From contig DATDQB010000020.1 in assembly GCA_035292445.1 (NCBI GenBank), positions 27,484 through 91,483 of the forward strand: a stretch of DNA of 64,000 bases, in the 5' to 3' direction. This DNA is from Candidatus Omnitrophota bacterium. Its GTDB lineage: Bacteria; Omnitrophota; Gorgyraeia; Zapsychrales; Zapsychraceae. Of this stretch, positions 19,161 through 33,154 are shown one piece after another. The notes under the pieces were generated by a model. That model did no database searches. It was not told the DNA's origin and was given only the letters and a program-made list of their open reading frames with translations. A program made the translations under genes and the position numbers. Positions within the stretch are counted from its first letter, which is position 1. Each line of letters opens with the position of its first letter.

Positions 19161-19190
19161 TAGTCATGTAAAGATTGACGACTCGGCTGG

Positions 19191-21143
19191 CTATACAGTA
19201 ATCTTTTCCTTAGATTCTGGAGCGAGCTCTAATTTCTCGTCTTTTTGAATGGATTGTTTGGGTCGGGGCTTGATCTCTAGCTCTCGGCTGCCATAAATAG
19301 CACGGATTTTTGCATCTAAGACCTTCTGCACCTGAAGTGTAGAATTAATGCGTTTTTCAATGTGCTTGTATCCAATAATTTTGTGGAAAAGGTTACGCAA
19401 CTTGATCTTCCAATCCTTCAAACCAAGCGTCGGGTAGGCATCTTCTTTCTCCAAATTCTCGATATTCTCCAGAAGTGAAGTTAAGATGAGCGTCTCTTCG
19501 AAATTCCTTCCATAAGGCAGGAGTTCATCTAGAGGAATAATTTTTTCTTCTTTTTCTAAAGGAGAAAAGTCGCCTGTTTCGATGGCTTTAACCTTCATTT
19601 CTATTTCTTCGGTCACATCCTCCGGTTTAATTAACTTGAATTCCTTTAGGGCATTATCGTACTCTTTGCTCACAAAATAATATTCAAACAGAAGTTTGTG
19701 CTTATTGGGCAATTCTTCAACGTCAAACAGATTATCCAGCTTATATTCCTTGGCCTTTTTACAAAATTCCTCGAACCGCTCCATCCGTTTTAAATACGTG
19801 CTGTTGCCGTCCAGGCTTTCCCAATAAAGATGGCCTTTTGACAGATCGATCCCGTACTTTTCCGGATTGGCGTGGCCCGCCGAGCCCGGGTAATATTCAC
19901 AAAAGTTCAAAGAAGGATTGACCATGCTGAAAGCTTTTTTGTTATCCCTTAAGAAATCCATGAGGTATTTAAAATCGTCTTCCGTCTCCGTAGGCAGGCC
20001 GAACATGATATTGACGCTCACATAAAGGCCTGATTTCTTGCCTTCGCGGAGCACGGCGGCGATATCGACGTCCTTGCAAAGGTTCTTGCCCACATCCATC
20101 AACACTTTTAACGAGGGGGTTTCCATGCCGTAGCCCAAAAGCGTACAGCCGGCTTTTTTGAGCTTCTTGTAAAGAGGCATTCGCATTTCCTTGCGGATAA
20201 CGGCATTCTCAAGATTCCACTTCACCCTTTTGTTAAGCCCCGATTCGATCATCAGATCGCAAAATTTCTCCAGCTCGTTTATCTTTGAATTGGAAATGTT
20301 GTCGCACATGCGGAAATAACAGACGTTGGGGTATTGCTCTAATTGGTATTTGATTTCCGCGAAAACGCGTTCTGCCGTGCGCACGCGGAATTGGTTCATG
20401 AACCCGATGGCGCTGCAATAATTGCACTTATTCACGCATCCCCGCGTTGTGTACGTAGGCAAAGTATTGGGCTGATCGTAATATTTGAATTCAAAATCAC
20501 TGAAATCCGGAAAGGGCAGCGAATCCAGCTTTTTGATAAACTCGGCATGGGGCCCGCGGATCAACTTACCGTTATGTTTATAAACAAAACCGGGAACGGC
20601 TTGGCCCTCTTGGCCATTTTTGACCATCTGCATATAACCTAAAAGCGCATTCTCCCCTTCATCCTGGCTTATGGCATGGATATAATCCCGGGCCAGCAAT
20701 GTATCGGTATTTTCCATAAAGCTCGCGACGTCAGGTCCGCCTAACAGATGGATAAATTCTCCGGGCATCATATTGTGCATATCTTCAAAGAAGATCTCGG
20801 CTAATAACCGCGAGGAGCATTGGCAGGAACACCCTACAACGAGCGGATTTAATTCGCGAAGCCGTTGCATGTACTCAAGGAAAATGGCGCGATTCTCTTT
20901 ATAATAATGCTGCATCGCCTCGCGTTCCATGCAGTAATTATAACCATTGGCCATATCCCAATAGCGCCGGTACTTTTTCCCCCCAAAATTATAAGCATAC
21001 GCATTCAGGTCCAATACGGTACATGAAACGTCATTTTCCCGTAAAAAGCTTTTCAATAGTGCGGGCCCTAAAGGCGGGCATCCGACACCCCAGAACGGCA
21101 TCTGGATAATGACAAGATCGGTTTTATGTCCTTTTTTGATCAT
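19191..21143 (-). CDS. B12-binding domain / radical SAM protein (class B radical SAM, methyltransferase-like)
   Basis: 650 aa. It has an N-terminal cobalamin-binding-like segment and a canonical Cx3Cx2C cluster (TTRGCVNKCNYCS). A strong RBS (AGGGAGG) lies 7 nt upstream of the ATG. Confidence 0.8.
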   Translation of the reverse strand: MIKKGHKTDLVIIQMPFWGVGCPPLGPALLKSFLRENDVSCTVLDLNAYAYNFGGKKYRRYWDMANGYNYCMEREAMQHYYKENRAIFLEYMQRLRELNPLVVGCSCQCSSRLLAEIFFEDMHNMMPGEFIHLLGGPDVASFMENTDTLLARDYIHAISQDEGENALLGYMQMVKNGQEGQAVPGFVYKHNGKLIRGPHAEFIKKLDSLPFPDFSDFEFKYYDQPNTLPTYTTRGCVNKCNYCSAIGFMNQFRVRTAERVFAEIKYQLEQYPNVCYFRMCDNISNSKINELEKFCDLMIESGLNKRVKWNLENAVIRKEMRMPLYKKLKKAGCTLLGYGMETPSLKVLMDVGKNLCKDVDIAAVLREGKKSGLYVSVNIMFGLPTETEDDFKYLMDFLRDNKKAFSMVNPSLNFCEYYPGSAGHANPEKYGIDLSKGHLYWESLDGNSTYLKRMERFEEFCKKAKEYKLDNLFDVEELPNKHKLLFEYYFVSKEYDNALKEFKLIKPEDVTEEIEMKVKAIETGDFSPLEKEEKIIPLDELLPYGRNFEETLILTSLLENIENLEKEDAYPTLGLKDWKIKLRNLFHKIIGYKHIEKRINSTLQVQKVLDAKIRAIYGSRELEIKPRPKQSIQKDEKLELAPESKEKITV

Positions 21144-21270: not shown

Positions 21271-21801
21271 TTATAAAGGCGATTGGATCAATTTCTTTTC
21301 TTCAAGGCCCTCCATAATAGCATCAACGATACCGCCGTGATCAACCCTTTCATCATCATTATTAACGACCAGATCCGGATGCAGCGGAGGTTCAAAGTTT
21401 ATATCGACACCGACCACATGCGTTATCTCACCTGCCAAAGCCTTTTTATATAATCCCTTCGGGTCCCGTTTCATGACGGTGTCCATGGACACATCGAGAT
21501 AAACCTCGAAATATTGGGACAAATTCTTCCTATTCCATTCTTGGGATTCGGGGAACAAAGACAAAAGCGCGAACACGACATCTATGCCCTGCTTTTCCAA
21601 ATACTGGCAGAAGCGGCAGATACGCTGGGCATTCTTCTTTCTTTCCTCAATAGTGTGGCCTAAATCATCGCCCATGATGTTCCTGAAAATATCCCCGTCA
21701 AAGAACACGACCGGACGACCCATGGCCGCCAACCTGTCCCTAAGCTTCCGGCCGATGGTCGTTTTTCCCGCGCCTGACAGACCTATGATCCATATAACCA
21801 T
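21271..21801 (-). CDS. Adenylylsulfate (APS) kinase-family protein; by context a Cj1415-like cytidine diphosphoramidate 3'-kinase
   Basis: 176 aa with the Walker A motif IIGLSGAGKTT and APS-kinase layout. The size and neighbourhood match C. jejuni Cj1415 rather than a sulfate-assimilation operon. Confidence 0.8.
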   Translation of the reverse strand: MVIWIIGLSGAGKTTIGRKLRDRLAAMGRPVVFFDGDIFRNIMGDDLGHTIEERKKNAQRICRFCQYLEKQGIDVVFALLSLFPESQEWNRKNLSQYFEVYLDVSMDTVMKRDPKGLYKKALAGEITHVVGVDINFEPPLHPDLVVNNDDERVDHGGIVDAIMEGLEEKKLIQSPL

Positions 21802-21813
21802 CTTGTTCCTTGC

Positions 21814-22593
21814 TTAATTGACAGAAACTACTTTCCCGTCAACAAATAACTCTTTAGCCAACTCATAATCATTTAAGCCGTCGATCTCAAGCCAGCCGCC
21901 GTTGATCTTGACACCGTAGATATCTTCCCCTTCGTTAATAATGCCCTGGAGCATATCGGTCATGAAAGCCTTTTCAAAGGGACGATCGCAGCCCCACGGT
22001 TTTCCTCCCGCTTGACTTATCTTTTCAGCGTTCAGGAACGATCTTTTGAAAGTATCGATCCCCCGCCCCTTGAATTTCATGAGCCCGATGTAACCCGCCT
22101 GCACGTCGGCAATGGCATGGGCGGGCTGGCCGATCACCTTGATCCTGTCTTTGTCGGCGAACCGCAACGCTTCCGCGTCCGCGAGCGGATCAGTGAACCG
22201 CCTTTTCCAATACCTCTCCCAGTTCATGTCGACCACAACGGAAATATCGTGAGGGGCTGCCATGAGCTTTCGCAGCACATCTTCGTTATAAATGATATCC
22301 CCGTAGGAGACGATCGACTCATCCTTCATTTCATGCTGGACGCACCATAAGGTCATGACCATATTGGTCGTGGCGTAACGCTCATTGACATAATACTTGA
22401 CGTCCTTGCGGGAGATCTTCTGCGCCATGTACCCTTTGACGGCAATGATGTCCCGGATGCCGCAGCGCTTCATCATATCGACCTGATGGTCGAAGATGCT
22501 CGTATCGCCGATCGGCACCAGGCATTTCGGTTTTTCGTCGGTGAATGGCCTTAGCCGCTTGCCCTCACCGGCTGCAAGAATGACAGCATTCAT
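21814..22593 (-). CDS. Nucleotidyltransferase (LicC/MobA-like NTP-transferase); by context a Cj1416-like CTP:phosphoglutamine cytidylyltransferase
   Basis: 259 aa. The N-terminal AVILAAGEGKRLRPFTDEKPKCLVPIG motif is the sugar-/phospho-ligand nucleotidyltransferase signature. Confidence 0.75.
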   Translation of the reverse strand: MNAVILAAGEGKRLRPFTDEKPKCLVPIGDTSIFDHQVDMMKRCGIRDIIAVKGYMAQKISRKDVKYYVNERYATTNMVMTLWCVQHEMKDESIVSYGDIIYNEDVLRKLMAAPHDISVVVDMNWERYWKRRFTDPLADAEALRFADKDRIKVIGQPAHAIADVQAGYIGLMKFKGRGIDTFKRSFLNAEKISQAGGKPWGCDRPFEKAFMTDMLQGIINEGEDIYGVKINGGWLEIDGLNDYELAKELFVDGKVVSVN

Positions 22594-22601
22594 CTTTAAC
22601 C

Positions 22602-23540
22602 TTATCCGTCCGTCGTTTTCTGGCTTAATAAAACGGTTATCCTCGCGAAACTGTTGACGAACCCGAATAACTTCTTCTTGGACAGGTTTTCAAAAAAATC
22701 ATCCACCTTCAAATTCAACGGATATCTCTTTGGAATTTCCGATACATAATAATGGGCGCCCACGGACCTTAATGGCAAAAATCCATTTCCCCGGCAAAGC
22801 GCTTTCAAACTCCGCTTGGTGTAGAGCTTCTTCTTCAACTTGTATTTCCAGACATCGTGGCCTTTAAGCATAGACTTTGAATTAAAGAATTTGCTGTTCT
22901 CGAACCTCGCAAAAATAACACCCAGCGTAGACTCGCAGAGAATGGACTTAAAAGACGGGAAAAGCTCGTATTTCTGCCCAAACAGCAAATAGGTCATGGA
23001 GCGGCAGAACCTGCGGAACGACGTGAAATCATTGAGCCCATAGGCCGAGCGCTGGGCAATAAGTAGATGCCCGCCCGGTTTAAGAACGCGCCAAGCCTCC
23101 TTAATCGTGGTTGTATCATCATAAAGATAATGAAGAACACCGGAGGCCACGATCAGATCAAATGTGTTGTCTTCATAGCTCCATCTCGTTTCAAGATTAC
23201 CCACCGTGAAATAATAGTTGCCGTCGAGATCATCCCTTCGGCAACGCTGGGTGGCGATATCACAGAATTTTTCCGAAATATCGATGCCATGGATCTCATG
23301 CCCGCGCTGGCCTATCCGCAACGCGGTCTGGCCTGCGCCGTAACCCAGCTCCATGACCTTAGCGCCCTTGGGAAGTTCAAGCTCATCGACATATTTCAAG
23401 ACTTTCTCTAACCGGCGATTGAGCGAACGGACCGTGTGGCTATCCCAGTCATCATACTGTTTATCCCACTTGACGATCTGTTGGCTGTTCCACCAGCCGC
23501 TCACGGCTTCGATCTGCTGTTCTTTGGTAATATTTTTCAT
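22602..23540 (-). CDS. Class I SAM-dependent methyltransferase (Cj1419/Cj1420-like candidate)
   Basis: 312 aa. Motif I is VMELGYGAGQTA and the post-II motif is VLKPGGHLLIAQ. Confidence 0.7.
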   Translation of the reverse strand: MKNITKEQQIEAVSGWWNSQQIVKWDKQYDDWDSHTVRSLNRRLEKVLKYVDELELPKGAKVMELGYGAGQTALRIGQRGHEIHGIDISEKFCDIATQRCRRDDLDGNYYFTVGNLETRWSYEDNTFDLIVASGVLHYLYDDTTTIKEAWRVLKPGGHLLIAQRSAYGLNDFTSFRRFCRSMTYLLFGQKYELFPSFKSILCESTLGVIFARFENSKFFNSKSMLKGHDVWKYKLKKKLYTKRSLKALCRGNGFLPLRSVGAHYYVSEIPKRYPLNLKVDDFFENLSKKKLFGFVNSFARITVLLSQKTTDG

Positions 23541-23562: not shown

Positions 23563-25530
23563 TTAAACTAAGATTTCCACTTTTTGTGCATTTTGCGTAA
23601 TGTTTAAATAACTTTCTAAGATCTCAGGTACAAATACGTTCGGCAGTTTATAAGGAACGATATATTTCTCCCGTGGGCCATCCAAAAATTCCTCCACCAT
23701 TTTAACGCCTTCAGCATAATCATTCATAGCCCTCAAGCTCGAACCATAACCGTTCTTGGCATTCTCGCGCAAGATCTGGTATTGCGGCCTGTAGAGCGCT
23801 AAGACCGGTTTGTGTCCGTAGATGGCCTCAAAAAAGACCGTGCTGGGGATGTCGCACAGGACACGGTCGATATAAGGAAACCATTTGGTGACCTTATGCG
23901 AATCGAATTGGATATTTTCATAATTATTCTTGCGTATGATCTCCGCCATCAGATCAACGCTCTGTCCGGGTTGAATGAGCGCCTTCCAAATGAAGAAAAT
24001 ATCTTTTCTCTTCGAGAAGTATTCGGCCAAAGCCTTGTGCCACTGAACGAACTCCGCGGGAAAGGGCTGGTTCTTCTGCACGGACCTGCCGGGAGTCGCC
24101 CCGTAGATGATGGGGACAAAAAGGACCACGCGCCTGCCGCCGGCGGAAACAACGGGCCTGATCTTTTGGTCCTTCGGGAACATGCGGGTCAATTTCCGGA
24201 AAAGATAGGAAAATTCGTGAACTTGCGGATACGCATAATTGAATTCCTTTACAAGCGACTTCTCATGCTCCGCTTCGCTGGCCGACGGGCTGAAAAAGAT
24301 GTCATATTGCCTATTCACGTAAAAAAACCGGCTTTTACACTCATAGGCGTCTGAGCCGTGCGCGAAACCGATGCTTTTTGTCGATGGCGTCAGCCTGGCG
24401 GCCGCGATCGCCGCATGCTCATCGACCGTCCATATATTGGGCGTTGCCACGAAATCAATGTTATTTCTTACATAAAATTCTTTATAGTCCTTAATTCTCG
24501 CGAGCAACTCGGGACAGATATCAAAATAAAAATACTTAAACCGCGACTTAAGGATATGGGAAACATCGATCCCGCATAAATTATTAATCCATCGCATGAC
24601 ATCTCCCCGCAGGATCTTATGGAACAAATCCTCACATGCAACATAGCCCGCTGGATCATGAAGCCCGGTCTCTATACCCCTCGCCCCTAAGTGACTCAAC
24701 GAAAGTTTTTTGGCCGCCTTGCCGGTCTCGAAGTAAATATCAAAACCGTATTTGCGTGAATCCATGACAAAATCCATCGTGCCCATAAGATCGCCGAGAA
24801 CAAAGATCCGCCCTTTCGGTAAATTTGCTTGTTGCGATTTAATACATATCTTCAATCCCCTGTAATAATTCTTAAGTTTTGAGACGGGTAGGATCTTTTT
24901 CAACGAAGCTTTAAAAGTTCGAGGATGGATAGTCGCCTTCAAAGACCGTAAAAAAGAAGGTTTTCTAATTACCGGTACAGGCGCATTAAAAGCAAGACGT
25001 TCGTAGGCTATGCCCCTATCCTTGCAAAGCGGCTCTATTAACTGGGAGAACGGGCTTTCACCGACGGTAAAGGACTGGTCCAGCATTCTTCCGAAAGGAT
25101 GGCCTGAGGGATCGCTCTCTAATAACCGCTCCATCTCTTCGGGGGTGTACTTTGGCCCGTAGAAAAAGATCTTTCCCGGCTTTGCCGACTCGATGAACTT
25201 ACGCAAGATTCTTGTGCTAAGGATTACGTTGTCGGTGAGATATTTGATCGTAAAATAATAAATTGTTGCCAAATTGATCCCTAACTTCTGCGCCTCCGGA
25301 AAGGCCTCTTTAAGCTGTTTGTCAAAATCGTCATACCACGCCAATTGTGCCAAGAGGAATTCATCCGTATTACCCCTGACCTCATAGGAGGTATAAAAAT
25401 CTTCAAGCGGGACATACGAAATGCCACAACGTTCAAGGTCCAATTGCGCCCGCTCGTTTAAGGCTACGGCCCGGGTGTTGGCAGGAAAGGTATAACTCTC
25501 ATGCCATTGTTCAACTAAACAGTAGTCCAT
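23563..25530 (-). CDS. Large hypothetical protein with a GT-B-like C-terminal region (candidate transferase; paralog of 50910-52766)
   Basis: 655 aa. A C-terminal pattern (DIPSTVFFEAIYGHKPVLAL) is typical of GT-B sugar-nucleotide-binding domains. An N-terminal block (PGKIFFYGPKYT) is shared with the 618-aa ORF at 50910-52766. Confidence 0.4.
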   Translation of the reverse strand: MDYCLVEQWHESYTFPANTRAVALNERAQLDLERCGISYVPLEDFYTSYEVRGNTDEFLLAQLAWYDDFDKQLKEAFPEAQKLGINLATIYYFTIKYLTDNVILSTRILRKFIESAKPGKIFFYGPKYTPEEMERLLESDPSGHPFGRMLDQSFTVGESPFSQLIEPLCKDRGIAYERLAFNAPVPVIRKPSFLRSLKATIHPRTFKASLKKILPVSKLKNYYRGLKICIKSQQANLPKGRIFVLGDLMGTMDFVMDSRKYGFDIYFETGKAAKKLSLSHLGARGIETGLHDPAGYVACEDLFHKILRGDVMRWINNLCGIDVSHILKSRFKYFYFDICPELLARIKDYKEFYVRNNIDFVATPNIWTVDEHAAIAAARLTPSTKSIGFAHGSDAYECKSRFFYVNRQYDIFFSPSASEAEHEKSLVKEFNYAYPQVHEFSYLFRKLTRMFPKDQKIRPVVSAGGRRVVLFVPIIYGATPGRSVQKNQPFPAEFVQWHKALAEYFSKRKDIFFIWKALIQPGQSVDLMAEIIRKNNYENIQFDSHKVTKWFPYIDRVLCDIPSTVFFEAIYGHKPVLALYRPQYQILRENAKNGYGSSLRAMNDYAEGVKMVEEFLDGPREKYIVPYKLPNVFVPEILESYLNITQNAQKVEILV

Positions 25531-26588
25531 AAATTATCCTTGGCTCTTTCATAATCTTTCACCATAGATGTCATTGAGTTAAACGCTTCTTCTGAGGCCA
25601 GGGCCTTGACCTCGTCTAATTTTTCCTTCCGTTCATCCTCGGAAAAATCGCGCGGACACTTCTCCCGCTCCAACACCGTGGGAGTATAAGGCGTCGGCTC
25701 CGTTTCGAGAAAGGAACAAATTTGCGATAAAACTTCGTGTGTATTTGTCACGGTTTCATCAAAGGTGACCCTTAAAACCCTCTCACGTCCTTTCTGTGAA
25801 AGCGACTTTAAGGCTTTGTTATAGTGCTTTCTGATGCCTTCGATCATATAAATAACCCTGCCCATCTCGGACAAGCTATTGTACTTTGCCGCCCAATCCG
25901 CGGCATAATAAGGAACGACACTCCCGTTAACTTGGGTCAATACAACCTGGCAGATCTTGCTGTCATAGGTCTCGGAACCGTGCGTGATCCCTTTTTTGTC
26001 GGCACGGGCTGTTGACCTTACTTCCTCGCCATAATGGTGATTAAACCATGAGTAGACCATATCCACCGGATGACGATCGATGAATACTATCTTTAGGAAA
26101 GGAAAAGCCTCGAACCAGCTTTTCGCGTGCCACAAAGCGTCGGACAACGCCAAAACGAGCAGCGGCCGCTTTGTTTCAATATCATCGACGATAAGCCCGC
26201 CCCTTTCTGAAAGGAACCGGTCAAGGTATTTCAAAGGGTCATCCGTATTAAATATGCTGGTTTCATCGACAAAACGCATGTTCATTTCCCTGCCGATCAT
26301 GTTGTCGTATAACTTGAAATCAACTATATAGCGCAGCAAGAACACCAGCACCTCATCGGATAATTTGCCTAAATGATTAAGCGTTCCCAGATGCTCCAAC
26401 AAAATGCTCATCTTGAAATGTTCCGCCCGCTCAAGGCTGCCCACAATGGGCGCCAGCATGCTCTTTCCAGACGTGGGGGCGCCGGTCACGATGACCAAAT
26501 CCTTCAGGAACGTTTCTTTGACCAGTTTTAATTCTTTATTTGCGCTGCTCATATTATTTTTCCGTGAGTTCACTGATCTTCTTTTCAC
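25515..26588 (-). CDS. Sulfotransferase-fold protein (3'-phosphonucleotide-dependent group transferase)
   Basis: 357 aa. A 5'-PSB-like P-loop (IVTGAPTSGKSMLAP) and a 3'-PB-like motif (FIDRHPVDMVYSW, compare eukaryotic RNPKDVAVSYYHF) are both present. Confidence 0.65.
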   Translation of the reverse strand: MKRRSVNSRKNNMSSANKELKLVKETFLKDLVIVTGAPTSGKSMLAPIVGSLERAEHFKMSILLEHLGTLNHLGKLSDEVLVFLLRYIVDFKLYDNMIGREMNMRFVDETSIFNTDDPLKYLDRFLSERGGLIVDDIETKRPLLVLALSDALWHAKSWFEAFPFLKIVFIDRHPVDMVYSWFNHHYGEEVRSTARADKKGITHGSETYDSKICQVVLTQVNGSVVPYYAADWAAKYNSLSEMGRVIYMIEGIRKHYNKALKSLSQKGRERVLRVTFDETVTNTHEVLSQICSFLETEPTPYTPTVLEREKCPRDFSEDERKEKLDEVKALASEEAFNSMTSMVKDYERAKDNLWTTV

Positions 26589-26727
26589 ACCAATCCTTCA
26601 ACACGGTCAAATTCTTGATCGTTTGCTGGACGCTGTACCTGGAATCAGGCCTTTGCCTGGCTGTCTCTTCCCACGTGCGTCCGTCTTTGCTTCCTTTGAT
26701 CTTGGTCATGCACAACCTCTTTCTTGC

Positions 26728-27723
26728 CTAAACCTGGCCGACAACCTGACGACCTTCATAGATCGCTTCTTGCATTGAATAACGGCCATCATATTCTTTT
26801 GCCATCGACTGCAATAACGCAAACGCATCATGTGAGGCCATGCGCTGGATCTCCTCCAACTTCTTGTCCCTGGCCTGCGGATGTACTATCCTCGGGCAGT
26901 TTTCCTTTTTGCAAACACGGGCCGTCTGCCGTGTAGGAGATGTCCCTAAGAAATCAGCAATCTCTTTAATGACGGCGTCCGTATGCGCCGCCAGTCTTTC
27001 AAAAGAAATGATCTTTATCTGCTGTCGCTGTGACGGCGATAAAGCATCATATTTCTGATAATGGCTGTCTTCCAATTTCTTTATCATATGGATGATCCTG
27101 TCGATCTCGGACATATTAAGGTAATCCTGTTCCCAACCGGCGGCGTAATAAGGAAGCGTCTTCGCTCCCCATTCGATCGTCAACGTGGCATTTCGCGGGT
27201 TATCAAAATAGTCGCCGCCATAACCTTTGCCGTACCAGTTAAGCACCATGTCCACGGGGTGTCGCGTGATATGAATCATCCGCATTTGCGGAAAGGAGCT
27301 GAAATAAATATCGGCATGCCAGAGGGCATCATGCACCATGAGAAGATAGAGCCGCCCAGAGCTCTCCATCGCCATTAACGCCGCATCGCCTTCTTTGGCA
27401 AACAGTCTTTTGAGGTAATGGACCGGCCGCGATGATCTCCAAACGCTGCTTAGGTCCCCAAACCTTAAATTCATATTTCTGCCGATCGTCAAATCATAAA
27501 CCATCGCATCAACCGCATAGCGCATCAAACATTTGGCCGCATCATCGGGGATAGACCTTAGGACCTGCATCATGGGAACCTGTTCCATCAAATAATTGAT
27601 GGCGACATGTTCCACTCTGGCCATGCTTGAGACGATCGGCGCCAGCAATGTCTTGCCCGAGCGGGTCAATCCGGTGATCAACACGAGGTTTTTGATGAAA
27701 TTTTGCCGGGTTATTTTAGTCAT
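26728..27723 (-). CDS. Sulfotransferase-fold protein, paralog of 25515-26588
   Basis: 331 aa. It carries the same two motifs (LITGLTRSGKTLLAP and ITRHPVDMVLNWYGKGYG) and is clearly alignable to the neighbouring paralog. Confidence 0.65.
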   Translation of the reverse strand: MTKITRQNFIKNLVLITGLTRSGKTLLAPIVSSMARVEHVAINYLMEQVPMMQVLRSIPDDAAKCLMRYAVDAMVYDLTIGRNMNLRFGDLSSVWRSSRPVHYLKRLFAKEGDAALMAMESSGRLYLLMVHDALWHADIYFSSFPQMRMIHITRHPVDMVLNWYGKGYGGDYFDNPRNATLTIEWGAKTLPYYAAGWEQDYLNMSEIDRIIHMIKKLEDSHYQKYDALSPSQRQQIKIISFERLAAHTDAVIKEIADFLGTSPTRQTARVCKKENCPRIVHPQARDKKLEEIQRMASHDAFALLQSMAKEYDGRYSMQEAIYEGRQVVGQV

Positions 27724-27732
27724 GGGAGATCT

Positions 27733-28419
27733 TTATTTTTTTATGCTGTCCGCGATCCGAAGATCGCTGTTAAAAAATTTCTCGATCAAAAGGCGGTCAT
27801 GTTCACTCATGGGCTTTTGCCGTTCCGGATGCCATTCAATGCCTAAGATCGGATGGGTTTCATGGATGAACCCTTCAATAATGTCATCTTTGACGGCCCA
27901 AGCTAATAGCCCCGCCCCTAAATGGTTTTCTTTAACGGCACAACGATGATAGGAATTAACCTCGAGCTTATCCGAGCCGTAAAACTCTTTAAAATAGTCC
28001 ATCGTAATAGTGACCGTATGAGATTTTGTCACGTGCCCGTCAATTTCGCCTTCCAGCTTTCCGCCAAAATAACAATTTATCAATTGCATGCCACGGCACA
28101 CGCCTAAGACGGGCTTTTTGTTTGCAATAGCCCAGTCCAATAGTTTTGCTTCCGTTATATCCCGGGCCGATCCAGCCCATTTTCCGGACGAATTCTTTTT
28201 TAGTTCCACATTTTCACCATTGCCCAAAATCAACGCCTCGCAACCGAGCTCCTTCACGTAAGTTTCCACGTCCTTGAGCCGGCTTGGTATCAATAAAGGC
28301 ATGTAATCGCATGACTCCAGGTAAACGACCCAGTCGTGGCTGAGGGCATCGCGCAGTTCAACGTATTCCTTCGTCTCAACGGTCCTCATAGTGATGGCAA
28401 CTTTCTTGATCTTACGCAT
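27733..28419 (-). CDS. Class I glutamine amidotransferase-like / peptidase C26 hydrolase; by context a Cj1417-like gamma-glutamyl-CDP-amidate hydrolase
   Basis: 228 aa. It has the GATase1 nucleophile elbow LGVCRGMQLIN and a C-terminal IEWHPE (His/Glu) block. Confidence 0.75.
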   Translation of the reverse strand: MRKIKKVAITMRTVETKEYVELRDALSHDWVVYLESCDYMPLLIPSRLKDVETYVKELGCEALILGNGENVELKKNSSGKWAGSARDITEAKLLDWAIANKKPVLGVCRGMQLINCYFGGKLEGEIDGHVTKSHTVTITMDYFKEFYGSDKLEVNSYHRCAVKENHLGAGLLAWAVKDDIIEGFIHETHPILGIEWHPERQKPMSEHDRLLIEKFFNSDLRIADSIKK

Positions 28420-30832
28420 GGCGCTGACCCATTTCGGTTAAGGGGGTTATTATCTTTTTTTCACAATCCAGGAAAACCTGTTCGGATTTCAACAGCCTCT
28501 CGTATATCAACTCGCCGCATCCGATCGCCGCAGGAATGCCGAATTCAGCGCAGCGAATGGAAATATGGGAAGCCACCCCGCCGTACTTGGTGATGATGCC
28601 CATCGGGCTTTTGGCAAAGATCCAGTCAAAGCCCGGGTCCGCGTTCTCAAGAAGCACAATATGGCCGCTCAGGTCTATTTCTTGCATAGTCTTAATGGTG
28701 TTAAAAGGTAAGAGCTTCCCCTGGATGTTCTTTTTCGTAATAAAATTGGGCTTTGCTTCATAGGGGGCAACAAAGTAAAAATCTTTAACCGATGCAATTA
28801 CAGGGGGAAGTATCACCAAGTCATACCATTCCCTTTCCTTTTTATGCCGATCAATGCTTTGTTGGATCATGTGCCTGGCATAATGGTGGTCGCCCTTTTC
28901 CGGATTCCTGAATTTCATGAGCGTCGGCAGATCCGCGTGGCACAGCTCTTCCCGCTTAAACCCCAACAGCTCACCCGCCTCGGCAATGAGCTCAAGCGCG
29001 TCGCTGAGGCTCTTGGTGAACTCAAACTTCGCATATTCCCGGTTTTCGGTCGCTGATCTGATGAAATTCAGCAGATCTTCTGCCTTACCGTTAAGGCCGC
29101 GCTCGCGCATAGCATCCGTAATCCGTTGATATACAGCCGGAGAGACTTCAAATTTATGGTCTGGCCGCTTTGTCGCTTTGGATGCGGCTTTTTGGCTAAA
29201 AAGGTGCGATGACTGGTCATAACGCGGCGTTGTAATGTCATAGGTCCCCGCGCGCAGATGGCCATAGCGCTTCAGAAAATCCTTTTTGGAAAGTTTTCCG
29301 TCCTGAAATAAATAGGAATCGTCATTAAACTGCGAGGCGACCGTACGGATGGAATTGAAAAAATCATGGTAAAAATCTTCCGTGATGACCCCCTGGTCCT
29401 TTAGACTGTTCAACAAACTTTTTGCAATGAATGCCAGCCTTGCCTGGCGAGAAAAAGGCAGCGTGCCGTATTTCTTGCAGTTTTGCAAGATATGGAATGC
29501 CGTATTCAATATTTCCCAGGGTGTCTTTTCCTGTTTCTCATGAAAGGCAATGATCTGCTCGCGCCGATCAGTAAGAAAACGGACCATATCAAGGTCTTCT
29601 TGGGAGATCCTTTGGTAATCCTGAAGAAGCCTCGCCGTTAAGCGCTTGATCGCCTGCTTAAACTCATCGATCCCCCCCCTTGTGAAACCCTCTTGCAGGA
29701 GAGCCTCGAGGGATCTGTCTGTCGAGAAATCATAACATGTCCAAAGGATCTCAAATTCCACCTTATCCTGAAGCGACGGATTCTTCTTTAATTTCCCTAA
29801 ATAAAAATTGATCAGCTTTTCTCTCAGATCGTCAGAAATGTCGACCGGTGTCAGCGAATTGAAACTGATGCGGGTATCGATATAGGGCTTTTTGGCAAAC
29901 GACACCATGAGCTCAGCGGGAAAAACATCATAATACCCAAGCGATGTCCTGGCCTCATGCCAGATCTCATCGGTGACAATGAAACTATAGATGGTATAGT
30001 CAAGCGTGTTGGGGCGGCTTCCGATGATCTCCGATGGGTTCCAATCCGGCATGTCCCCGAACACGGTCCCCTCCCCGGCCAAATGCGGTATCCGCCGGGA
30101 ATACCGATTGAACTTTTTGGCCATGTCGATGATCAGATGCTCGACAAATTCATCTTGAGGGATTTCCAACGCGCTGTTAGCCGCCAACGGCCGCACCTGG
30201 AAGATCACCACGCGATTGGACCGCGTGATCGCGAATTCAATATCAAGCACTTGGCCGGAAAATAATGCCTCGATCTCTTTAACAGCCCTCAATAAATTCG
30301 CCCATTTCTCCTCCAACTCGCTTCCATTGAAGTGGGATATATAAACCGTCTGGCCTTCCATGCCTCCTGTCACCGTGTCCGTCCTGCCGCTTCTCTCATC
30401 AAAATTAATGACATAATACGGCGCGTTGGTGCCGATCTGCCGGGTGAAAATAACGCCGCTCACGATGATATCCCGCGTCTGCGGCTGGATAAGGATCTGG
30501 TCATCCTTGGTATGGACTTTTGATTTGCTGTATGAGGCAACAACGCGTTCAACGGCTTCCCTGATATGCTCCGGCTTGGGCTCGACATTCAACTCGCTAT
30601 GAAAAGCTCCGGCCTGTGATTGAAGCTGTGTGTCCTCGGCGAAAGCGGAGCTGCGCACAATAAGTCTTTCCGATTTGAACCGCTCACAGACCGCTTCGAC
30701 CACTTTCTCTTTGCCGTTCACCCATTCATGGACGGTACAATAGAAAATGTCTTCGATCCGGGAGTTCTTTACCCTCGGTTTCAACCAGTTCAGCACGTTT
30801 GTTTTTGATAATCTTTCTATTTCAGATTGCAT
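28412..30832 (-). CDS. PEP-synthase / pyruvate-phosphate-dikinase-like phosphotransferase lacking the PEP-binding barrel; by context a Cj1418-like L-glutamine (amide) kinase
   Basis: 806 aa. It has an N-terminal PPDK_N/ATP-grasp hallmark (LIVRSSAFAEDTQLQSQAG) and a C-terminal phospho-His swivel domain (KYGGVASHISIRCAEFGIPAAIGCG). There is no TIM-barrel PEP domain. Confidence 0.7.
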   Translation of the reverse strand: MQSEIERLSKTNVLNWLKPRVKNSRIEDIFYCTVHEWVNGKEKVVEAVCERFKSERLIVRSSAFAEDTQLQSQAGAFHSELNVEPKPEHIREAVERVVASYSKSKVHTKDDQILIQPQTRDIIVSGVIFTRQIGTNAPYYVINFDERSGRTDTVTGGMEGQTVYISHFNGSELEEKWANLLRAVKEIEALFSGQVLDIEFAITRSNRVVIFQVRPLAANSALEIPQDEFVEHLIIDMAKKFNRYSRRIPHLAGEGTVFGDMPDWNPSEIIGSRPNTLDYTIYSFIVTDEIWHEARTSLGYYDVFPAELMVSFAKKPYIDTRISFNSLTPVDISDDLREKLINFYLGKLKKNPSLQDKVEFEILWTCYDFSTDRSLEALLQEGFTRGGIDEFKQAIKRLTARLLQDYQRISQEDLDMVRFLTDRREQIIAFHEKQEKTPWEILNTAFHILQNCKKYGTLPFSRQARLAFIAKSLLNSLKDQGVITEDFYHDFFNSIRTVASQFNDDSYLFQDGKLSKKDFLKRYGHLRAGTYDITTPRYDQSSHLFSQKAASKATKRPDHKFEVSPAVYQRITDAMRERGLNGKAEDLLNFIRSATENREYAKFEFTKSLSDALELIAEAGELLGFKREELCHADLPTLMKFRNPEKGDHHYARHMIQQSIDRHKKEREWYDLVILPPVIASVKDFYFVAPYEAKPNFITKKNIQGKLLPFNTIKTMQEIDLSGHIVLLENADPGFDWIFAKSPMGIITKYGGVASHISIRCAEFGIPAAIGCGELIYERLLKSEQVFLDCEKKIITPLTEMGQRHA

Positions 30833-32069
30833 GCGATACCTTCTTGTTTCCGGTCACTTCAAAGACCTTCTCCCCCATGACTTCGGCCAGGTATTGTGCG
30901 ATCAACTGATTTCCTTTTTTTGTAATGTGGCCCCCATACAGATCCTCTGTATAAAAAGTCGCCAAATCCTGCTTAAGAATAAAATCGCTTAGATCAATGA
31001 CGGTCATCTCCTTGCCGATCTCTTGGTAGAATGGACGATAAGCAGATCCCCTCTTAAAATGCACAATACGCTTTAGGTCCATAAGCTGCGGTATAACGAC
31101 GATGACGGGCTGATGCCCGCGACCTTCGGCCCCGGCCTTGAAACGCATCAAAATGGATTTTAACAAAGCACAAGATTCTTTATCAGAATACATTTGATGG
31201 GCTTGATCGATATTACCCTCCATAATGATCTGAAACGGCCTGTTCTCGAGCGTCGAATTGGAACGCTTCACGGACCGCGCCAGAACCCGGACAATGAGGC
31301 TTGCGATCAGCCGGCTGTTCCTTTTAAAATTACGAAAATAACTTAGCGTGTAAGGAAAACGGAATTGCATATGCCGAAACTTTGAGGCGTAAAACCCGTC
31401 GTTTTTCCGAAGGTCTCTCAATTTCGGTTCCAGCTCTCTAAAATCCTCTTGTGTTTGCATCACGTTCGGTAAAAGCTCCAACTGTCCGTCTTTGAGCACG
31501 AACCTCGGCTTGAAAGCAAACGTGTTACCGAACTCCAGATAATGCTTCCAATACGACTGCACGCGGCAGATCGTCTCCGGGACAAAGGAGAATATAACAA
31601 TCTTCACCGAATCCGCCAGCTGCGTCCGCTCATAACGTAACAATGTTTGGTCAACCCCGTAATTTCCCACCCCGTAATTGGACACGCCGATACCTAACAG
31701 CTGCGTCAAATAGACCTGCCAAGTCTCGTCGTCATTGACCTGCCGGCAAAAATTGTAAGAATCCCCGAAGGTGGCGATTGTCTCTTCTTTATCCGCCAAC
31801 AACGGATTTGTCCTGCCGCCTTTGGCATCGATCGTGAACGTCGTACGAACGTCGCGCGCCTTTTCCGCGCCCGAGGTATGGGGCCTTCGCACCCATCCTA
31901 ACTGCCCATCGAAGCCGTGATTGAAAAACTTCTCCAACCCCTGCTTGTCCAAAGCCGGCAATTCATCTGCTTCCGTGATAAGCCATTGGAAATCCCTGTG
32001 CAAATATTTGATCAGCGCAATAAAAGCCACCTCAAGCAATATAATTCCTATTAGGATAGAGTAGATCAT
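30822..32069 (-). CDS. Membrane-anchored SGNH/GDSL-family hydrolase (candidate glycan O-acyl esterase/transferase)
   Basis: 415 aa. It has an N-terminal TM helix and a GDSL block-I TIATFGDSYNF. The size and anchor resemble AlgJ/AlgX-type proteins. Confidence 0.5.
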   Translation of the reverse strand: MIYSILIGIILLEVAFIALIKYLHRDFQWLITEADELPALDKQGLEKFFNHGFDGQLGWVRRPHTSGAEKARDVRTTFTIDAKGGRTNPLLADKEETIATFGDSYNFCRQVNDDETWQVYLTQLLGIGVSNYGVGNYGVDQTLLRYERTQLADSVKIVIFSFVPETICRVQSYWKHYLEFGNTFAFKPRFVLKDGQLELLPNVMQTQEDFRELEPKLRDLRKNDGFYASKFRHMQFRFPYTLSYFRNFKRNSRLIASLIVRVLARSVKRSNSTLENRPFQIIMEGNIDQAHQMYSDKESCALLKSILMRFKAGAEGRGHQPVIVVIPQLMDLKRIVHFKRGSAYRPFYQEIGKEMTVIDLSDFILKQDLATFYTEDLYGGHITKKGNQLIAQYLAEVMGEKVFEVTGNKKVSHAI

Positions 32070-33154
32070 CGCTCTTCTTTCGCCAAAAGATGCCTGGCGC
32101 GGCCTCCATTAACATAATCCCATCGTAAAGGGCTTCCCTTTTTAATATTCTTGATAGCCTGCTTTCCCCAGAATTTATCGGCATATTTGGGGCTCAATCC
32201 ATGGCCGGGCCTGATGGAGCGGACATTGTTCTCATCAAACTTCTCGCCCTTTTTGATGTCCCTGACCGCAAACAACGACCGCCTGAAAACACGGCTTTTC
32301 ATTTCCTCTTGGCTAATGACGTTCTTTTCCTGGCCTAACGCTTTCTCCACAAGCCGGATATGATCAACCAATGTTTTCAGCTCATGCGGATCGATGGAAA
32401 AGAAACTATCCGGTGTCTTGTGCCGCTTCGATAGAATAAAATGCTTTTCAACGAGGACCGCCCCCAGGGTAACGGCAACCAATGCCATGTCGACCCCTAA
32501 AGTGTGATCGGAAAACCCAATGGGGCACTTAAATCGTTCCTCCATCGCCGGAATAGCGCGTAAATTCATCTCCTCAGGAATTGCCGGATAATTGCTGACG
32601 CATTTTAATAGAATGATCTCTTTTGCCCCTGCTTCGCGTGCCGCCTTAACAGCCTCTTCTATTTCCTGTTCGGAAGCCATGCCGCTGGACATAATTAATG
32701 GTTTCTTGGTCTTGGCGGCATACTTGATCAATGGTATGTCGACCAATTCAAAGGAAGAAATTTTGTGCGCCGGAACATTGAGATCTTCCAACAGATCAAT
32801 GCTCGTTTTATCAAAAGCCGATGAAAAAAAGCAGATCCCTTCATCGTCACAAACCTTTTTCAGCTTCTTGAACCAATGCCACGGGGTATAGCCCTTTTTA
32901 TAAAGCTGATACAAAGTTTGCCCGCCCCATTTGGGATGTTTGACCTGAAAATATTTGTTACTGCTGTTCAATGTAATGGTATCCGGCGTATACGTCTGGA
33001 ATTTCACCGCATCGGCCCCGCAGGCCTTGGCCTCTTTGATCATGTTGACGGCACGGTCGAACTTTTGGCCATGATTGGCGGAGATCTCCGCGACAATAAA
33101 TGCCGGGCAATTGTCACCTATTTGTTTATTGCCGATACGTATTTTTGTCATCAT
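32066..33154 (-). CDS. NeuB-family nonulosonic acid synthase (sialic/pseudaminic/legionaminic acid synthase), copy 1
   Basis: 362 aa. IVAEISANHGQKFDRAVNMIKEAKACGADAVKFQTY is present, followed by a C-terminal SAF domain. Confidence 0.85.
   Translation of the reverse strand: MMTKIRIGNKQIGDNCPAFIVAEISANHGQKFDRAVNMIKEAKACGADAVKFQTYTPDTITLNSSNKYFQVKHPKWGGQTLYQLYKKGYTPWHWFKKLKKVCDDEGICFFSSAFDKTSIDLLEDLNVPAHKISSFELVDIPLIKYAAKTKKPLIMSSGMASEQEIEEAVKAAREAGAKEIILLKCVSNYPAIPEEMNLRAIPAMEERFKCPIGFSDHTLGVDMALVAVTLGAVLVEKHFILSKRHKTPDSFFSIDPHELKTLVDHIRLVEKALGQEKNVISQEEMKSRVFRRSLFAVRDIKKGEKFDENNVRSIRPGHGLSPKYADKFWGKQAIKNIKKGSPLRWDYVNGGRARHLLAKEER

What the first reader, a model, noticed from the sequence alone, without database searches (positions are those of the whole stretch)
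25515..27723. Two sulfotransferase-fold paralogs inside the phosphoramidate cassette: candidate transferases for a PAPS-like CDP-amidate donor
Both proteins keep the two motifs that grip the 5'-phosphosulfate and the 3'-phosphate of PAPS. These are a P-loop TGxxxSGK(S/T) and the block RHPVDMVxxW, which can be compared with the eukaryotic 3'-PB motif RNPKDVAVSYYHF. The product of the adjacent kinase pathway, 3'-phospho-CDP-amidate, is a structural analogue of PAPS: a 3'-phosphonucleotide with a transferable group on the 5'-diphosphate. The genes sit between the pathway's first two and last three genes. If they are true sulfotransferases, the glycan is both sulfated and phosphoramidated. If they use the CDP-amidate donor, this would be a sulfotransferase-fold phosphoramidyl transferase family.
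Basis: inference. Interest (0 to 1): 0.8.

Follow-up and report, generated by a model that had tools for sequence, protein, structure and literature searches.

The report
Sulfotransferase-fold pair in a phosphoramidate operon
Two related sulfotransferase-shaped enzymes sit inside a gene set that makes a rare phosphorus-nitrogen sugar decoration; they are the best, still unproven, candidates for the missing enzyme that attaches it, though close relatives elsewhere look like ordinary sulfate-adding enzymes.

Summary

Across about 90 related loci the family nearly always accompanies nonulosonic-acid genes and an APS-kinase-like gene. It appears with one of three donor modules: phosphoramidate, phosphonate or sulfate. 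The kinases split into three clades that follow the module. Only kinases next to ATP sulfurylase pass the true APS-kinase cut-off. Cassettes without a kinase, on five plasmids (three genera), carry CDP-type phosphotransferases instead. The 64-kb window has no sulfate-activation gene.

Against this, one 42%-identical relative sits with only ATP sulfurylase and a true APS kinase. I found no residue that separates the groups. A LIC12162-family GT-B protein (23563-25530) is an equally constant neighbour.

ST-B has lost the Arg and His that align with the sulfotransferase catalytic Lys and His. My estimates: P-group transferase 0.45, ordinary sulfotransferase 0.35.

The parts
26728..27723 (-). ST-A: sulfotransferase-fold protein, 331 aa. 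It keeps the P-loop Arg (R21), the Walker-type Lys (K24), H131 and the 3'-phosphate motif R154-H-P-V-D. It starts 9 nt after the stop codon of the Cj1417-like gene.
25515..26588 (-). ST-B: paralog of ST-A, 357 aa from the GTG and probably 345 aa from the ATG at 26552. The P-loop reads TGAPTSGKS (Arg lost) and the LSDALWH block has lost the His. The RHPVD motif is kept. Its last 16 nt overlap the start of the next gene.
28412..30832 (-). Cj1418-like PEP-utilizing enzyme, the putative L-glutamine kinase.
   Evidence: NF004508/PRK05849 at 859 bits against a cut-off of 501; Pfam PPDK_N plus PEP-utilizers.
27733..28419 (-). Cj1417-like class-I glutamine amidotransferase/C26 hydrolase, the putative gamma-glutamyl-CDP-amidate hydrolase.
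   Evidence: The best NCBIfam hit is NF045546 at E=9e-31 and 107 bits, below the cut-off of 250; Pfam Peptidase_C26.
23563..25530 (-). U655: 655-aa GT-B fold protein, a divergent member of the LIC12162 family (PF27859). It is a constant neighbour of the ST family. It is probably the nonulosonic-acid glycosyltransferase, and it is the alternative candidate for P-group transfer.
22602..23540 (-). Class I SAM methyltransferase, 312 aa, the functional counterpart of Cj1419/Cj1420.
   Evidence: Pfam Methyltransf_11 at E=5e-21; co-conserved in L001, L007, L021, L091, L093 and L095.
21814..22593 (-). Cj1416-like MobA-type nucleotidyltransferase, the putative CTP:phosphoglutamine cytidylyltransferase.
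   Evidence: Pfam NTP_transf_3; the closest solved relative is CTP:phosphocholine cytidylyltransferase.
21271..21801 (-). Cj1415-like APS-kinase-family kinase, the putative CDP-amidate 3'-kinase. It is the only APS-kinase homolog in the window.
   Evidence: PRK05541 at 177 bits (cut-off 127); TIGR00455 apsK at 135.8 bits, below the cut-off of 138.7. It falls in the cassette-linked kinase clade and lacks the ISP motif. No other hit in the window.
19191..21143 (-). B12-binding radical SAM enzyme, 650 aa, co-conserved with the cassette.
30822..32069 (-). U415: 415-aa protein with no family hit. It has an N-terminal hydrophobic helix and GDS...DxxH blocks seen by eye, suggesting an SGNH-like protein. 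It sits next to the Cj1418-like gene here and in L067-L069 and L078.
   Evidence: the SGNH reading rests on inspection only.
32066..33154 (-). NeuB-family nonulosonic acid synthase. It marks the likely acceptor pathway.
   Evidence: Pfam NeuB at E=4e-91; NeuB or NeuA is found in most longer loci of the ST family.

Best explanation
ST-A belongs to an uncharacterised, environmental-only subfamily of the sulfotransferase fold that decorates nonulosonic-acid (pseudaminic/legionaminic-type) glycans.

In this operon its most likely donor is not PAPS. It is the product of the flanking pathway, 3'-phospho-cytidine-5'-diphosphoramidate. The proposed steps are as follows. The Cj1418-like kinase, the Cj1417-like hydrolase and the Cj1416-like cytidylyltransferase make CDP-amidate. 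The Cj1415-like kinase adds the 3'-phosphate. ST-A grips that 3'-phosphate with its RHPVD motif and the 5'-phosphate with its P-loop. H131 deprotonates a sugar hydroxyl, which attacks the terminal phosphorus. 3'-phospho-CMP leaves, in the way that PAP leaves PAPS. The adjacent SAM methyltransferase supplies the O-methyl group.

ST-B has lost the Arg and the His, and these losses are conserved in its orthologs. It is more likely a non-catalytic or specificity partner than a second standard catalyst. U655 (LIC12162 family, GT-B fold) is most simply the nonulosonic-acid glycosyltransferase.

Shown: the fold, the motifs, the operon structure, the co-occurrence pattern and the kinase co-variation. 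Inferred: the donor, the acceptor, the roles of individual residues and the role of ST-B.
For: 1. Operon. All cassette genes and both ST genes are on one strand with gaps of 16 nt or less, or overlaps. The exception is a gap of about 140 nt between ST-A and ST-B.

2. No local sulfate activation. The 64-kb window has no ATP sulfurylase, CysD/N or pyruvate-kinase-like partner. Its only APS-kinase homolog is the PRK05541 type and falls just under the apsK equivalog cut-off.

3. Kinases follow the donor. In related loci the APS-kinase-family genes form three clades that follow the donor module. All three kinases adjacent to ATP sulfurylase pass TIGR00455 (142, 157 and 143 bits against a cut-off of 138.7). 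All six kinases tested next to the cassette, the phosphonate module or the ST gene fail it (135.8, 117.6, 109.6, 119.7, 122.9, 89.3 bits). In the motif table, an ISP block appears only in the two kinases linked to ATP sulfurylase or its PK-like partner (L007 IISPF, L062 VISPL); two further Sat-adjacent kinases read ITP and VAP there.

4. Double-module loci. L007, L095 and L093 hold a contiguous block of c46-type Sulfotransfer_3, PK-PUA-ATP sulfurylase and a true APS kinase. They also hold the cassette with a second, non-apsK kinase. The ST-family gene abuts that second kinase or the Cj1418-like gene.

5. Phosphonate loci. Thirteen or more phosphonate loci (PEP mutase, TPP decarboxylase, aldehyde dehydrogenase, AsnB) carry the same trio of nucleotidyltransferase, divergent kinase and ST-family gene. 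None carries ATP sulfurylase.

6. Kinase-less cassettes. Cassettes chosen through Cj1418 on plasmids that lack a kinase carry CDP-type phosphotransferases instead. Vibrio has Glyphos_transf, Pseudohalocynthiibacter has a weak Glyphos_transf hit, and Agrobacterium vitis has a CDP-alcohol phosphatidyltransferase.

7. Kinase always present with ST plus cassette. Every ST-plus-cassette locus whose surroundings are fully visible has a kinase.

8. CysQ. L024 has a CysQ equivalog (253 bits), a 3',5'-bisphosphate nucleotidase, inserted in the order Cj1418L-GAT-CysQ-NT-ST.

9. Open step in the literature. The MeOPN transfer step was still biochemically uncharacterised in August 2025 (PMC12409886).
Against: 1. 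L094 is a complete 18.6-kb contig. It has an ST-family member 42% identical to ST-A, translationally coupled to a true APS kinase and ATP sulfurylase, with no cassette. L002 and L035 place a member directly after ATP sulfurylase. The family therefore probably contains real sulfotransferases.

2. The P-loop, 3'-PB and His blocks are the same in sulfate-linked and P-linked members. I found no donor-discriminating residue.

3. Phosphoramidate and phosphonate contexts interleave on the ST tree. That is also what a donor-independent sulfotransferase would show.

4. The Campylobacter MeOPN transferases identified genetically are proteins of about 600 aa. No ST-family member was found in any named cultured organism or plasmid. 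I could not obtain Cj1421/Cj1422 to compare folds.

5. U655 has TagF-like, TarL and CMP-binding structural neighbours and is as constant a neighbour as the ST gene.

6. About a quarter of the long loci show no donor module.

7. The loci were selected through the ST protein and come mostly from marine metagenomes, so the counts are biased.
Confidence: 0.45

Rival explanations
1. ST-A, and possibly ST-B, are ordinary PAPS-dependent sulfotransferases that sulfate the same nonulosonic-acid glycan. The phosphoramidate is attached by another protein: U655 (LIC12162-like GT-B) or an unrecognised enzyme. The glycan then carries both sulfate and phosphoramidate.
For: Both proteins pass the Pfam sulfotransferase thresholds, and the fold matches only sulfotransferases. 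Relatives sit next to ATP sulfurylase and true APS kinase without any cassette (L094, L002/L035). The motifs are identical across contexts. Contexts interleave on the ST tree. U655 resembles TagF-like CDP-dependent phosphotransferases. PAPS is a common metabolite, so local activation genes are not required.
Against: There is no sulfate-activation gene in 64 kb, and the only kinase is the cassette type. In double-module loci a different protein, a c46-type Sulfotransfer_3, is the one glued to ATP sulfurylase and APS kinase. The phosphonate loci carry a monophyletic, non-apsK kinase with the ST gene and no sulfurylase. LIC12162-family proteins also occur where no P-module exists (L094, named Leptospira proteins), so they are not specific to P-transfer. 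This reading also leaves the 3'-phosphorylation step without a matching transferase.
Confidence: 0.35
2. ST-A and ST-B work as a heteromer in which ST-B is a catalytically dead scaffold or acceptor-specificity subunit. This refines either reading above, because the donor is left open.
For: The ST-B clade (window, L001, L004, L005) has conserved replacements of the P-loop Arg (to T) and of His131 (to S). It keeps GK(S/T), RHPVD and 61-68% identity among its orthologs. The tandem A-B order is conserved in L001, L004, L005 and L091.
Against: No complex prediction or interaction test was possible. Some sulfotransferases use Glu or other residues as the base, so loss of the His does not prove inactivity. 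Many loci manage with a single ST gene.
Confidence: 0.5
3. The proteins are P-loop kinases or ATPases rather than group transferases that use a 3'-phosphonucleotide donor. The argument is that their P-loop is a complete Walker A motif, GxxxxGK(S/T).
For: G17-L-T-R-S-G-K-T fits the Walker A motif exactly. Canonical sulfotransferases have Thr where this family has Lys (the canonical motif is from general knowledge).
Confidence: 0.04

Closest known systems
PAPS-dependent sulfotransferases (Pfam Sulfotransfer_1/Sulfotransfer_3; structurally closest are TPST1/2, the CurM and olefin-synthase ST domains, and mycobacterial Stf1/Stf9)
   Different: Sequence similarity is marginal: the best PDB match is E=4e-4, over the C-terminal third only. 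The P-loop carries a Walker-type Lys (GKT/S) where sulfotransferases have GTT. An invariant block GRNxNxRxxD has no named counterpart. The genomic partners are mostly P-donor pathways and non-apsK kinases rather than sulfate activation.
Campylobacter jejuni MeOPN transferases Cj1421/Cj1422 (CJJ81176_1420/1421 and 1435)
   Same: They fill the same proposed slot in the pathway: transfer of the (methyl)phosphoramidate made by Cj1415-1418 onto a surface glycan. They also often occur as two paralogs per locus.
   Different: They are proteins of about 592-603 aa, known from genetics only. No ST-family member was found in Campylobacter or any other cultured organism. Whether they share a fold could not be tested here. 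The acceptor there is GalfNAc, heptose or galactose; here it is probably a nonulosonic acid.
CDP-dependent phosphotransferases (TagF/TarL Glyphos_transf family; CDP-alcohol phosphatidyltransferases)
   Same: They would catalyse the same chemistry: attack on the distal phosphorus of a cytidine diphospho-X donor, with a cytidine nucleotide leaving. They accompany Cj1418/1417/1416 homologs on the Vibrio, roseobacter-group (Pseudohalocynthiibacter) and Agrobacterium plasmids.
   Different: Those cassettes lack the 3'-kinase. The fold is different (GT-B or membrane-embedded) and there is no 3'-phosphate motif. In the window the only related shape is U655, not the ST pair.

Membership tests
Sulfotransferase superfamily (Pfam PF13469 / PF00685) | Profile score above the curated gathering threshold | tested here: met
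   ST-A scores 37.0 and 31.1 bits and ST-B 32.9 and 22.5 bits, against cut-offs of 27 and 22.
Sulfotransferase superfamily | Sulfotransferase three-dimensional fold | tested here: met
Sulfotransferase superfamily | 5'-phosphosulfate-binding loop with a catalytic Lys or Arg | tested here: inconclusive
   ST-A has TRSGKT, with R21 at the Lys48-equivalent position. ST-B and its three orthologs have PTSGKS, so the Arg is lost. The equivalence to Lys48 rests on motif alignment, not on a superposition.
Sulfotransferase superfamily | 3'-phosphate-binding motif RxPxD(x3)S | tested here: met
   The motif is RHPVDMVLN in ST-A (Asn at the Ser position) and RHPVDMVYS in ST-B. The family consensus is RHPVDLVxSW, and R154 and P156 are invariant.
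Sulfotransferase superfamily | Catalytic base (His or Glu) after the central strand | tested here: inconclusive
   H131 is at least 90% conserved and present in ST-A. It is replaced by Ser in the ST-B clade. Its role is inferred from its spacing to the 3'-PB Arg.
Sulfotransferase superfamily | Uses PAPS as donor | not testable with these tools
   This needs an enzyme assay or a ligand-aware structure prediction.
O-methyl phosphoramidate pathway (Cj1415-Cj1422 type) | Co-location with homologs of the four donor-synthesis enzymes | tested here: met
   In the window: PRK05849 at 859 bits, NF045546 as best hit, an NTP_transf_3 protein and PRK05541 at 177 bits. The same association is seen in at least 20 related loci.
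O-methyl phosphoramidate pathway | Homology to the genetically defined transferases Cj1421/Cj1422 | not tested
No named Campylobacter protein appeared among the ST, U655 or LIC12162 homologs.
O-methyl phosphoramidate pathway | Transfers the phosphoramidate from 3'-phospho-CDP-amidate | not testable with these tools
   This is inferred only from gene context and from the 3'-phosphate motif.
P-loop nucleotide kinases | Walker A motif together with a kinase fold as nearest structural neighbour | tested here: not met
LIC12162 family transferase (TIGR04331 / PF27859), considered for U655, not for the ST pair | Profile match | tested here: inconclusive
   U655 itself has no Pfam or NCBIfam hit in the local libraries. 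Nine of its 16 homologs carry precomputed PF27859, marked weak in two of the loci read (L091, L092) and unmarked in two others (L093, L094). hhalign against the c10/TIGR04331 group was not significant. The fold is GT-B.

The most novel reading that the evidence does not exclude
This sulfotransferase-fold subfamily, together with matched APS-kinase-family kinases and cytidylyltransferases, forms a general 'PAPS-like' system. The system moves phosphorus-based groups onto nonulosonic-acid glycans. The groups are phosphoramidate from 3'-phospho-CDP-amidate and, in marine loci, phosphonates from a hypothetical 3'-phospho-CMP-phosphonate. If so, this would be the first sulfotransferase-fold phosphoryl-type transferases. 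It would also explain why the MeOPN pathway phosphorylates its donor at the 3' position.
Probability: 0.4. Interest if true: 0.85.

Novelty: new variant of a known kind. Interest (0 to 1): 0.66.

Why it matters
The last step of O-methyl phosphoramidate biosynthesis has never been reconstituted. Nobody has shown which enzyme moves the group onto the sugar, or why the donor carries a 3'-phosphate. That decoration matters for serum resistance and phage recognition in Campylobacter.

This work supplies a small, soluble candidate of about 330 residues. It has a recognisable 3'-phosphonucleotide site and natural controls: sulfate-linked relatives, double-module loci and kinase-less cassettes with CDP-type transferases. 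That makes the question directly testable in vitro.

If the P-donor reading is right, the sulfotransferase fold gains a new reaction class. It would also predict a new activated phosphonate nucleotide in marine bacteria. If it is wrong, these proteins are still the first candidate sulfotransferases for bacterial nonulosonic acids.

Tried and rejected
1. Sequence search of the ST profile against PDB gave only marginal sulfotransferase hits over the C-terminal third. It was not usable for mapping residues.

2. I tried to link U655 or the ST proteins to candidate transferases in cassette-bearing plasmids. These were the C-terminal domain of the Azospirillum TPR protein, the two 413-aa Smac51 proteins, the Pseudohalocynthiibacter 410-aa protein and the Vibrio Glyphos_transf protein. 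hmmsearch, BLAST and single-sequence hhalign found nothing significant.

3. The two proteins of about 620 aa on the Smac51 plasmid looked like a Cj1421/Cj1422-style pair. They turned out to be B12-radical SAM enzymes.

4. hhalign of U655 against the c10/LIC12162 group was not significant. The link rests on the shared precomputed PF27859 hits.

5. The full-library profile search with U655 found 558 clusters. The ten whose names I looked up were all unnamed or 'hypothetical protein', so no bridge to Campylobacter emerged.

6. The AlphaFold database fold library was unavailable. I therefore could not compare the models with Cj1421/Cj1422.

7. PDB sequence searches with the Cj1416-, Cj1417- and Cj1418-like proteins found no Campylobacter structures. 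Cassette identity therefore rests on NCBIfam hits and synteny.

8. Literature searches for a sulfotransferase-fold phosphoramidate or phosphonate transferase found nothing. PMC5938747 was not held.

9. I looked for residues separating sulfate-linked from P-linked ST members and found none. Any difference would in any case be confounded by phylogeny.

10. I considered the Walker-A kinase reading and rejected it on fold.

Full report
**What is there**

The window comes from a Candidatus Omnitrophota MAG; this is the source name attached to the identical protein. All ORFs of at least 150 aa that matter lie on the minus strand. Around the finding, the transcription order is as follows:

- an N-acetyl-sugar amidotransferase-like gene
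- HisH/HisF-like genes
- a PseG-like/GNAT fusion
- NeuB (32066-33154)
- an unassigned 415-aa protein (30822-32069)
- a Cj1418-like PEP-utilizing enzyme (28412-30832)
- a Cj1417-like GATase (27733-28419)
- ST-A (26728-27723)
- ST-B (25515-26588)
- a 655-aa unassigned protein, U655 (23563-25530)
- a SAM methyltransferase (22602-23540)
- a Cj1416-like nucleotidyltransferase (21814-22593)
- a Cj1415-like kinase (21271-21801)
- a B12-radical SAM enzyme (19191-21143)
- a GT1 glycosyltransferase

Junctions are tight. Cj1418L and GAT overlap by 8 nt. ST-A starts 9 nt after the GAT stop codon. ST-B overlaps U655 by 16 nt. The only sizeable gap, about 140 nt, lies between ST-A and ST-B.

**Check of the observation**

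In the family alignment, R21 (P-loop TRSGKT) and H131 (VHDALWH) are conserved in at least 90% of members. ST-B and its three orthologs (L001, L004, L005) have Thr and Ser at these positions.

By motif alignment, R21 corresponds to the catalytic Lys of PKSGTTW. H131 lies 23 residues before the 3'-PB Arg, as His108 lies 22 residues before Arg130 in SULT1E1. That comparison is from my own knowledge of SULT1E1, not from a superposition.

ST-A therefore has a full sulfotransferase-type catalytic set. ST-B does not, yet it is conserved at 61-68% identity among its orthologs. It is probably a partner rather than a second standard catalyst.

The whole family also differs from canonical sulfotransferases in having a complete Walker A motif, GxxxxGK(S/T).

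**The family and its company**

The family is small and purely environmental. There are 39 clusters at 90% identity, none from a named cultured organism. There are 3 loci in 185,579 species genomes, at least 85 in metagenomes and none on 72,556 plasmids.

I clustered all ORFs of 83 loci and annotated representatives. The most frequent neighbours are nonulosonic-acid genes: NeuB, CMP-NulO synthetase, PseB-like and PseC-like.

Beyond that, the ST gene comes with one of three donor modules:

- **Type I, phosphoramidate cassette.** Members are the Cj1418-like gene, the GATase, the nucleotidyltransferase and the kinase. It is found in the window and in L001, L007-L011, L015, L021, L024, L040, L041, L046, L055, L067-L070, L074 and L078, plus L091-L093 and L095.
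- **Type II, phosphonate module.** It holds PEP mutase fused to a nucleotidyltransferase, a TPP decarboxylase, an aldehyde dehydrogenase and an AsnB-type amidotransferase, all confirmed by Pfam. A 232-aa nucleotidyltransferase lies immediately upstream of the ST gene, and an APS-kinase-family gene is present. It is found in L012, L013, L018-L020, L022, L027, L029, L030, L033, L047-L053 and L072.
- **Type III, sulfate activation.** This is a pyruvate-kinase-like/PUA/ATP-sulfurylase protein plus an APS kinase. It is found in L002/L035 and L094, with the PK-like part seen in L062/L063, L075 and L076.

Among the 32 loci of at least 9 kb the split is 8-9 type I, 11 type II, 4 type III and 8-9 with no module (with L008 corrected). 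The counts are biased, because the loci were selected through the ST protein and come mostly from marine samples.

**Kinases follow the donor**

A tree of the APS-kinase-family genes from these loci gives three clades that match the three modules. All thirteen phosphonate-locus kinases form one clade.

Against NCBI's apsK equivalog (TIGR00455, cut-off 138.7 bits), the three kinases that sit next to ATP sulfurylase pass: 142.0, 157.1 and 143.1 bits. The six tested kinases next to the cassette, the phosphonate module or the ST gene fail. They score 135.8 (window), 117.6, 109.6, 119.7, 122.9 and 89.3 bits.

The window kinase instead passes the PRK05541 subfamily model, at 177 bits against a cut-off of 127.

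In the kinase motif table, an ISP block in the central strand appears only in the two kinases linked to ATP sulfurylase or its PK-like partner (L007 IISPF, L062 VISPL). The two other Sat-adjacent kinases read ITP (L093) and VAP (L094) at that position. From memory, this block is part of the APS site in APS kinase.

**Natural controls**

Three loci (L007, L095, L093) hold both modules. Each has a contiguous block of a different sulfotransferase (c46 type, about 430 aa, Sulfotransfer_3), ATP sulfurylase and a true APS kinase. Each also has the cassette with a second, non-apsK kinase. The ST-family gene abuts either that second kinase (L093) or the Cj1418-like gene (L007, L095). So these loci have two donors, two kinases and two ST-fold proteins, paired by adjacency.

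L024 has a CysQ equivalog, a 3',5'-bisphosphate nucleotidase (253 bits), inserted between the GATase and the nucleotidyltransferase, just upstream of the ST gene. This implies that a 3',5'-bisphosphonucleotide by-product is made there.

I also selected cassettes through Cj1418 instead of through the ST protein, which gave 15 plasmids. Vibrio alfacsensis, Pseudohalocynthiibacter aestuariivivens and Agrobacterium vitis have the first three genes but no kinase. Next to them they carry a Glyphos_transf (TagF-type) protein or a CDP-alcohol phosphatidyltransferase. These are enzymes that use unphosphorylated CDP-X donors.

Azospirillum and a cockroach-gut deltaproteobacterium (Smac51) do have the kinase, and they carry other, unassigned proteins.

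The type of transferase therefore appears to change with the presence of the 3'-kinase. That is what one expects if the 3'-phosphate is a handle for a sulfotransferase-like site.

**What argues against**

- L094 is a complete 18.6-kb contig. It has an ST-family member 42% identical to ST-A whose start overlaps the stop of a true APS kinase. That kinase follows ATP sulfurylase, and there is no cassette. Its P-loop is unusual (RSCKQ), and the radical SAM gene of that locus is fragmented, but the simplest reading is a real sulfotransferase.
- L002 and L035 put a member directly after ATP sulfurylase.
- The active-site blocks are the same in all contexts.
- Phosphoramidate and phosphonate contexts interleave on the ST tree, as a donor-independent enzyme would.
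- U655 is as constant a neighbour as the ST gene (window, L001, L021, L091-L095). In other loci its place is taken by a 583-aa protein that passes TIGR04331, the LIC12162 family transferase model, at 247 bits.
- Homologs of both U655 and that protein carry PF27859, the LIC12162 Pfam family.

Such a protein could in principle transfer a phosphoramidate from a CDP donor. I consider it more likely to be the nonulosonic-acid glycosyltransferase. The family also occurs in the sulfate-only L094 and in named Leptospira proteins, so it tracks the sugar and not the P-module. That is an inference.

**Comparison with what is known**

In Campylobacter the four donor enzymes are characterised. The transferases Cj1421/Cj1422 and their 81-176 homologs (592-603 aa) are assigned by genetics only. 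In August 2025 the Raushel group still listed the decoration step as something to be elucidated (PMC12409886).

I found no paper proposing or testing a sulfotransferase-fold phosphoramidate or phosphonate transferase. I could not compare the ST proteins or U655 with Cj1421/Cj1422, because neither their sequences nor the AlphaFold database library were reachable.

The proteins are members of the sulfotransferase superfamily by profile and by fold. Whether they work as sulfotransferases is open.

**Verdict**

- Most likely (0.45): ST-A transfers the phosphoramidate from 3'-phospho-CDP-amidate to a nonulosonic-acid-containing acceptor, and ST-B is a diverged partner.
- Main rival (0.35): ST-A is an ordinary PAPS sulfotransferase of the same glycan.

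The wider pattern was not in the original finding and deserves follow-up whichever way ST-A turns out. It consists of the same ST family paired with matched kinase clades in phosphoramidate, phosphonate and sulfate loci, together with CDP-type transferases where the kinase is absent.

Noticed in passing
L012, L022, L027, L029, L047-L053 (for example L049:4259-12415): These are marine phosphonate loci holding a PEP mutase-cytidylyltransferase fusion, a TPP decarboxylase, an aldehyde dehydrogenase and an AsnB-type amidotransferase. They always carry a 232-aa nucleotidyltransferase, an ST-family gene and a monophyletic, divergent APS-kinase-family kinase that fails the apsK cut-off. None has ATP sulfurylase. 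This hints at a 3'-phosphorylated CMP-phosphonate donor, which to my knowledge has never been described.
   Followed up: partly
L007:7207-11234; L095:16733-20754; L093:5427-9460; L094:5065-9578: A recurrent sulfation block is made of a Sulfotransfer_3 protein of 375-430 aa, a fusion of about 700 aa (pyruvate-kinase barrel, PUA_2 and ATP sulfurylase) and a true APS kinase. The role of the pyruvate-kinase-like domain fused to ATP sulfurylase is unexplained.
   Followed up: partly
L024:3047-3781: A CysQ equivalog, a 3'(2'),5'-bisphosphate nucleotidase (253 bits), is inserted inside a phosphoramidate cassette between the GATase and the nucleotidyltransferase, directly upstream of the ST gene.
   Followed up: yes
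window 19191-21143 and 37998-39743; L021, L091, L092, L093; L087:19927-24080: B12-binding radical SAM enzymes are co-conserved with the phosphoramidate cassette. On the plasmid of a cultured deltaproteobacterium (Smac51) there are two paralogs at 73% identity. They show weak similarity to P-methyltransferase families (PhpK and Sden_1168 types). Campylobacter's cassette has none, as far as I recall, so the final group here may differ from plain O-methyl phosphoramidate.
   Followed up: no
L084 (Vibrio alfacsensis pYa108), L086 (Pseudohalocynthiibacter), L088 (Agrobacterium vitis): These plasmids carry Cj1418/1417/1416 homologs without the 3'-kinase, next to a Glyphos_transf (TagF-type) protein or a CDP-alcohol phosphatidyltransferase. 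This suggests a kinase-independent route that uses CDP-amidate directly.
   Followed up: partly
L085:18657-20900 (Azospirillum sp. TSA2s plasmid p2): A 747-aa TPR protein sits inside a cassette that does have the kinase. Its 400-residue C-terminal domain has no family hit but contains 'ITSWGHAGAIWL...HP' and 'LIRHPVPRTES', strings reminiscent of the sulfotransferase 5'-PSB and 3'-PB motifs. Profile comparison with the ST family was not significant.
   Followed up: partly
window 30822-32069; L067, L068, L069, L078: A 415-aa protein with no Pfam or NCBIfam hit is conserved next to the Cj1418-like gene. It has an N-terminal hydrophobic helix and, by eye, GDS...DxxH blocks typical of SGNH hydrolases or acyl-esterases.
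   Followed up: no
L001:~17277-20300; L007, L010, L092:6025-8895; L095:10971-13823: In several loci the Cj1418-like enzyme is 950-1003 aa long and carries an N-terminal CTP_transf_like domain. This is a fusion of a cytidylyltransferase domain to the glutamine-kinase-like enzyme.
   Followed up: no
window 23563-25530: U655 belongs to a large environmental-only family of proteins of about 600-650 aa: 558 clusters at 50% identity with E<=1e-3. The family is distantly tied to the LIC12162 family, and none of the ten members I looked up has a functional name.
   Followed up: partly
L094:13036-14371: In the sulfate-only locus the radical SAM gene is split into three short ORFs, and the ST-family P-loop reads RSCKQ. 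The locus may be a decaying derivative of a double-module locus, or the contig may contain assembly errors.
   Followed up: no
window 1-64000: Nearly every long ORF in the 64-kb window is on the minus strand, and GC skew is negative throughout. The region is one very large unidirectional glycan-biosynthesis locus.
   Followed up: no
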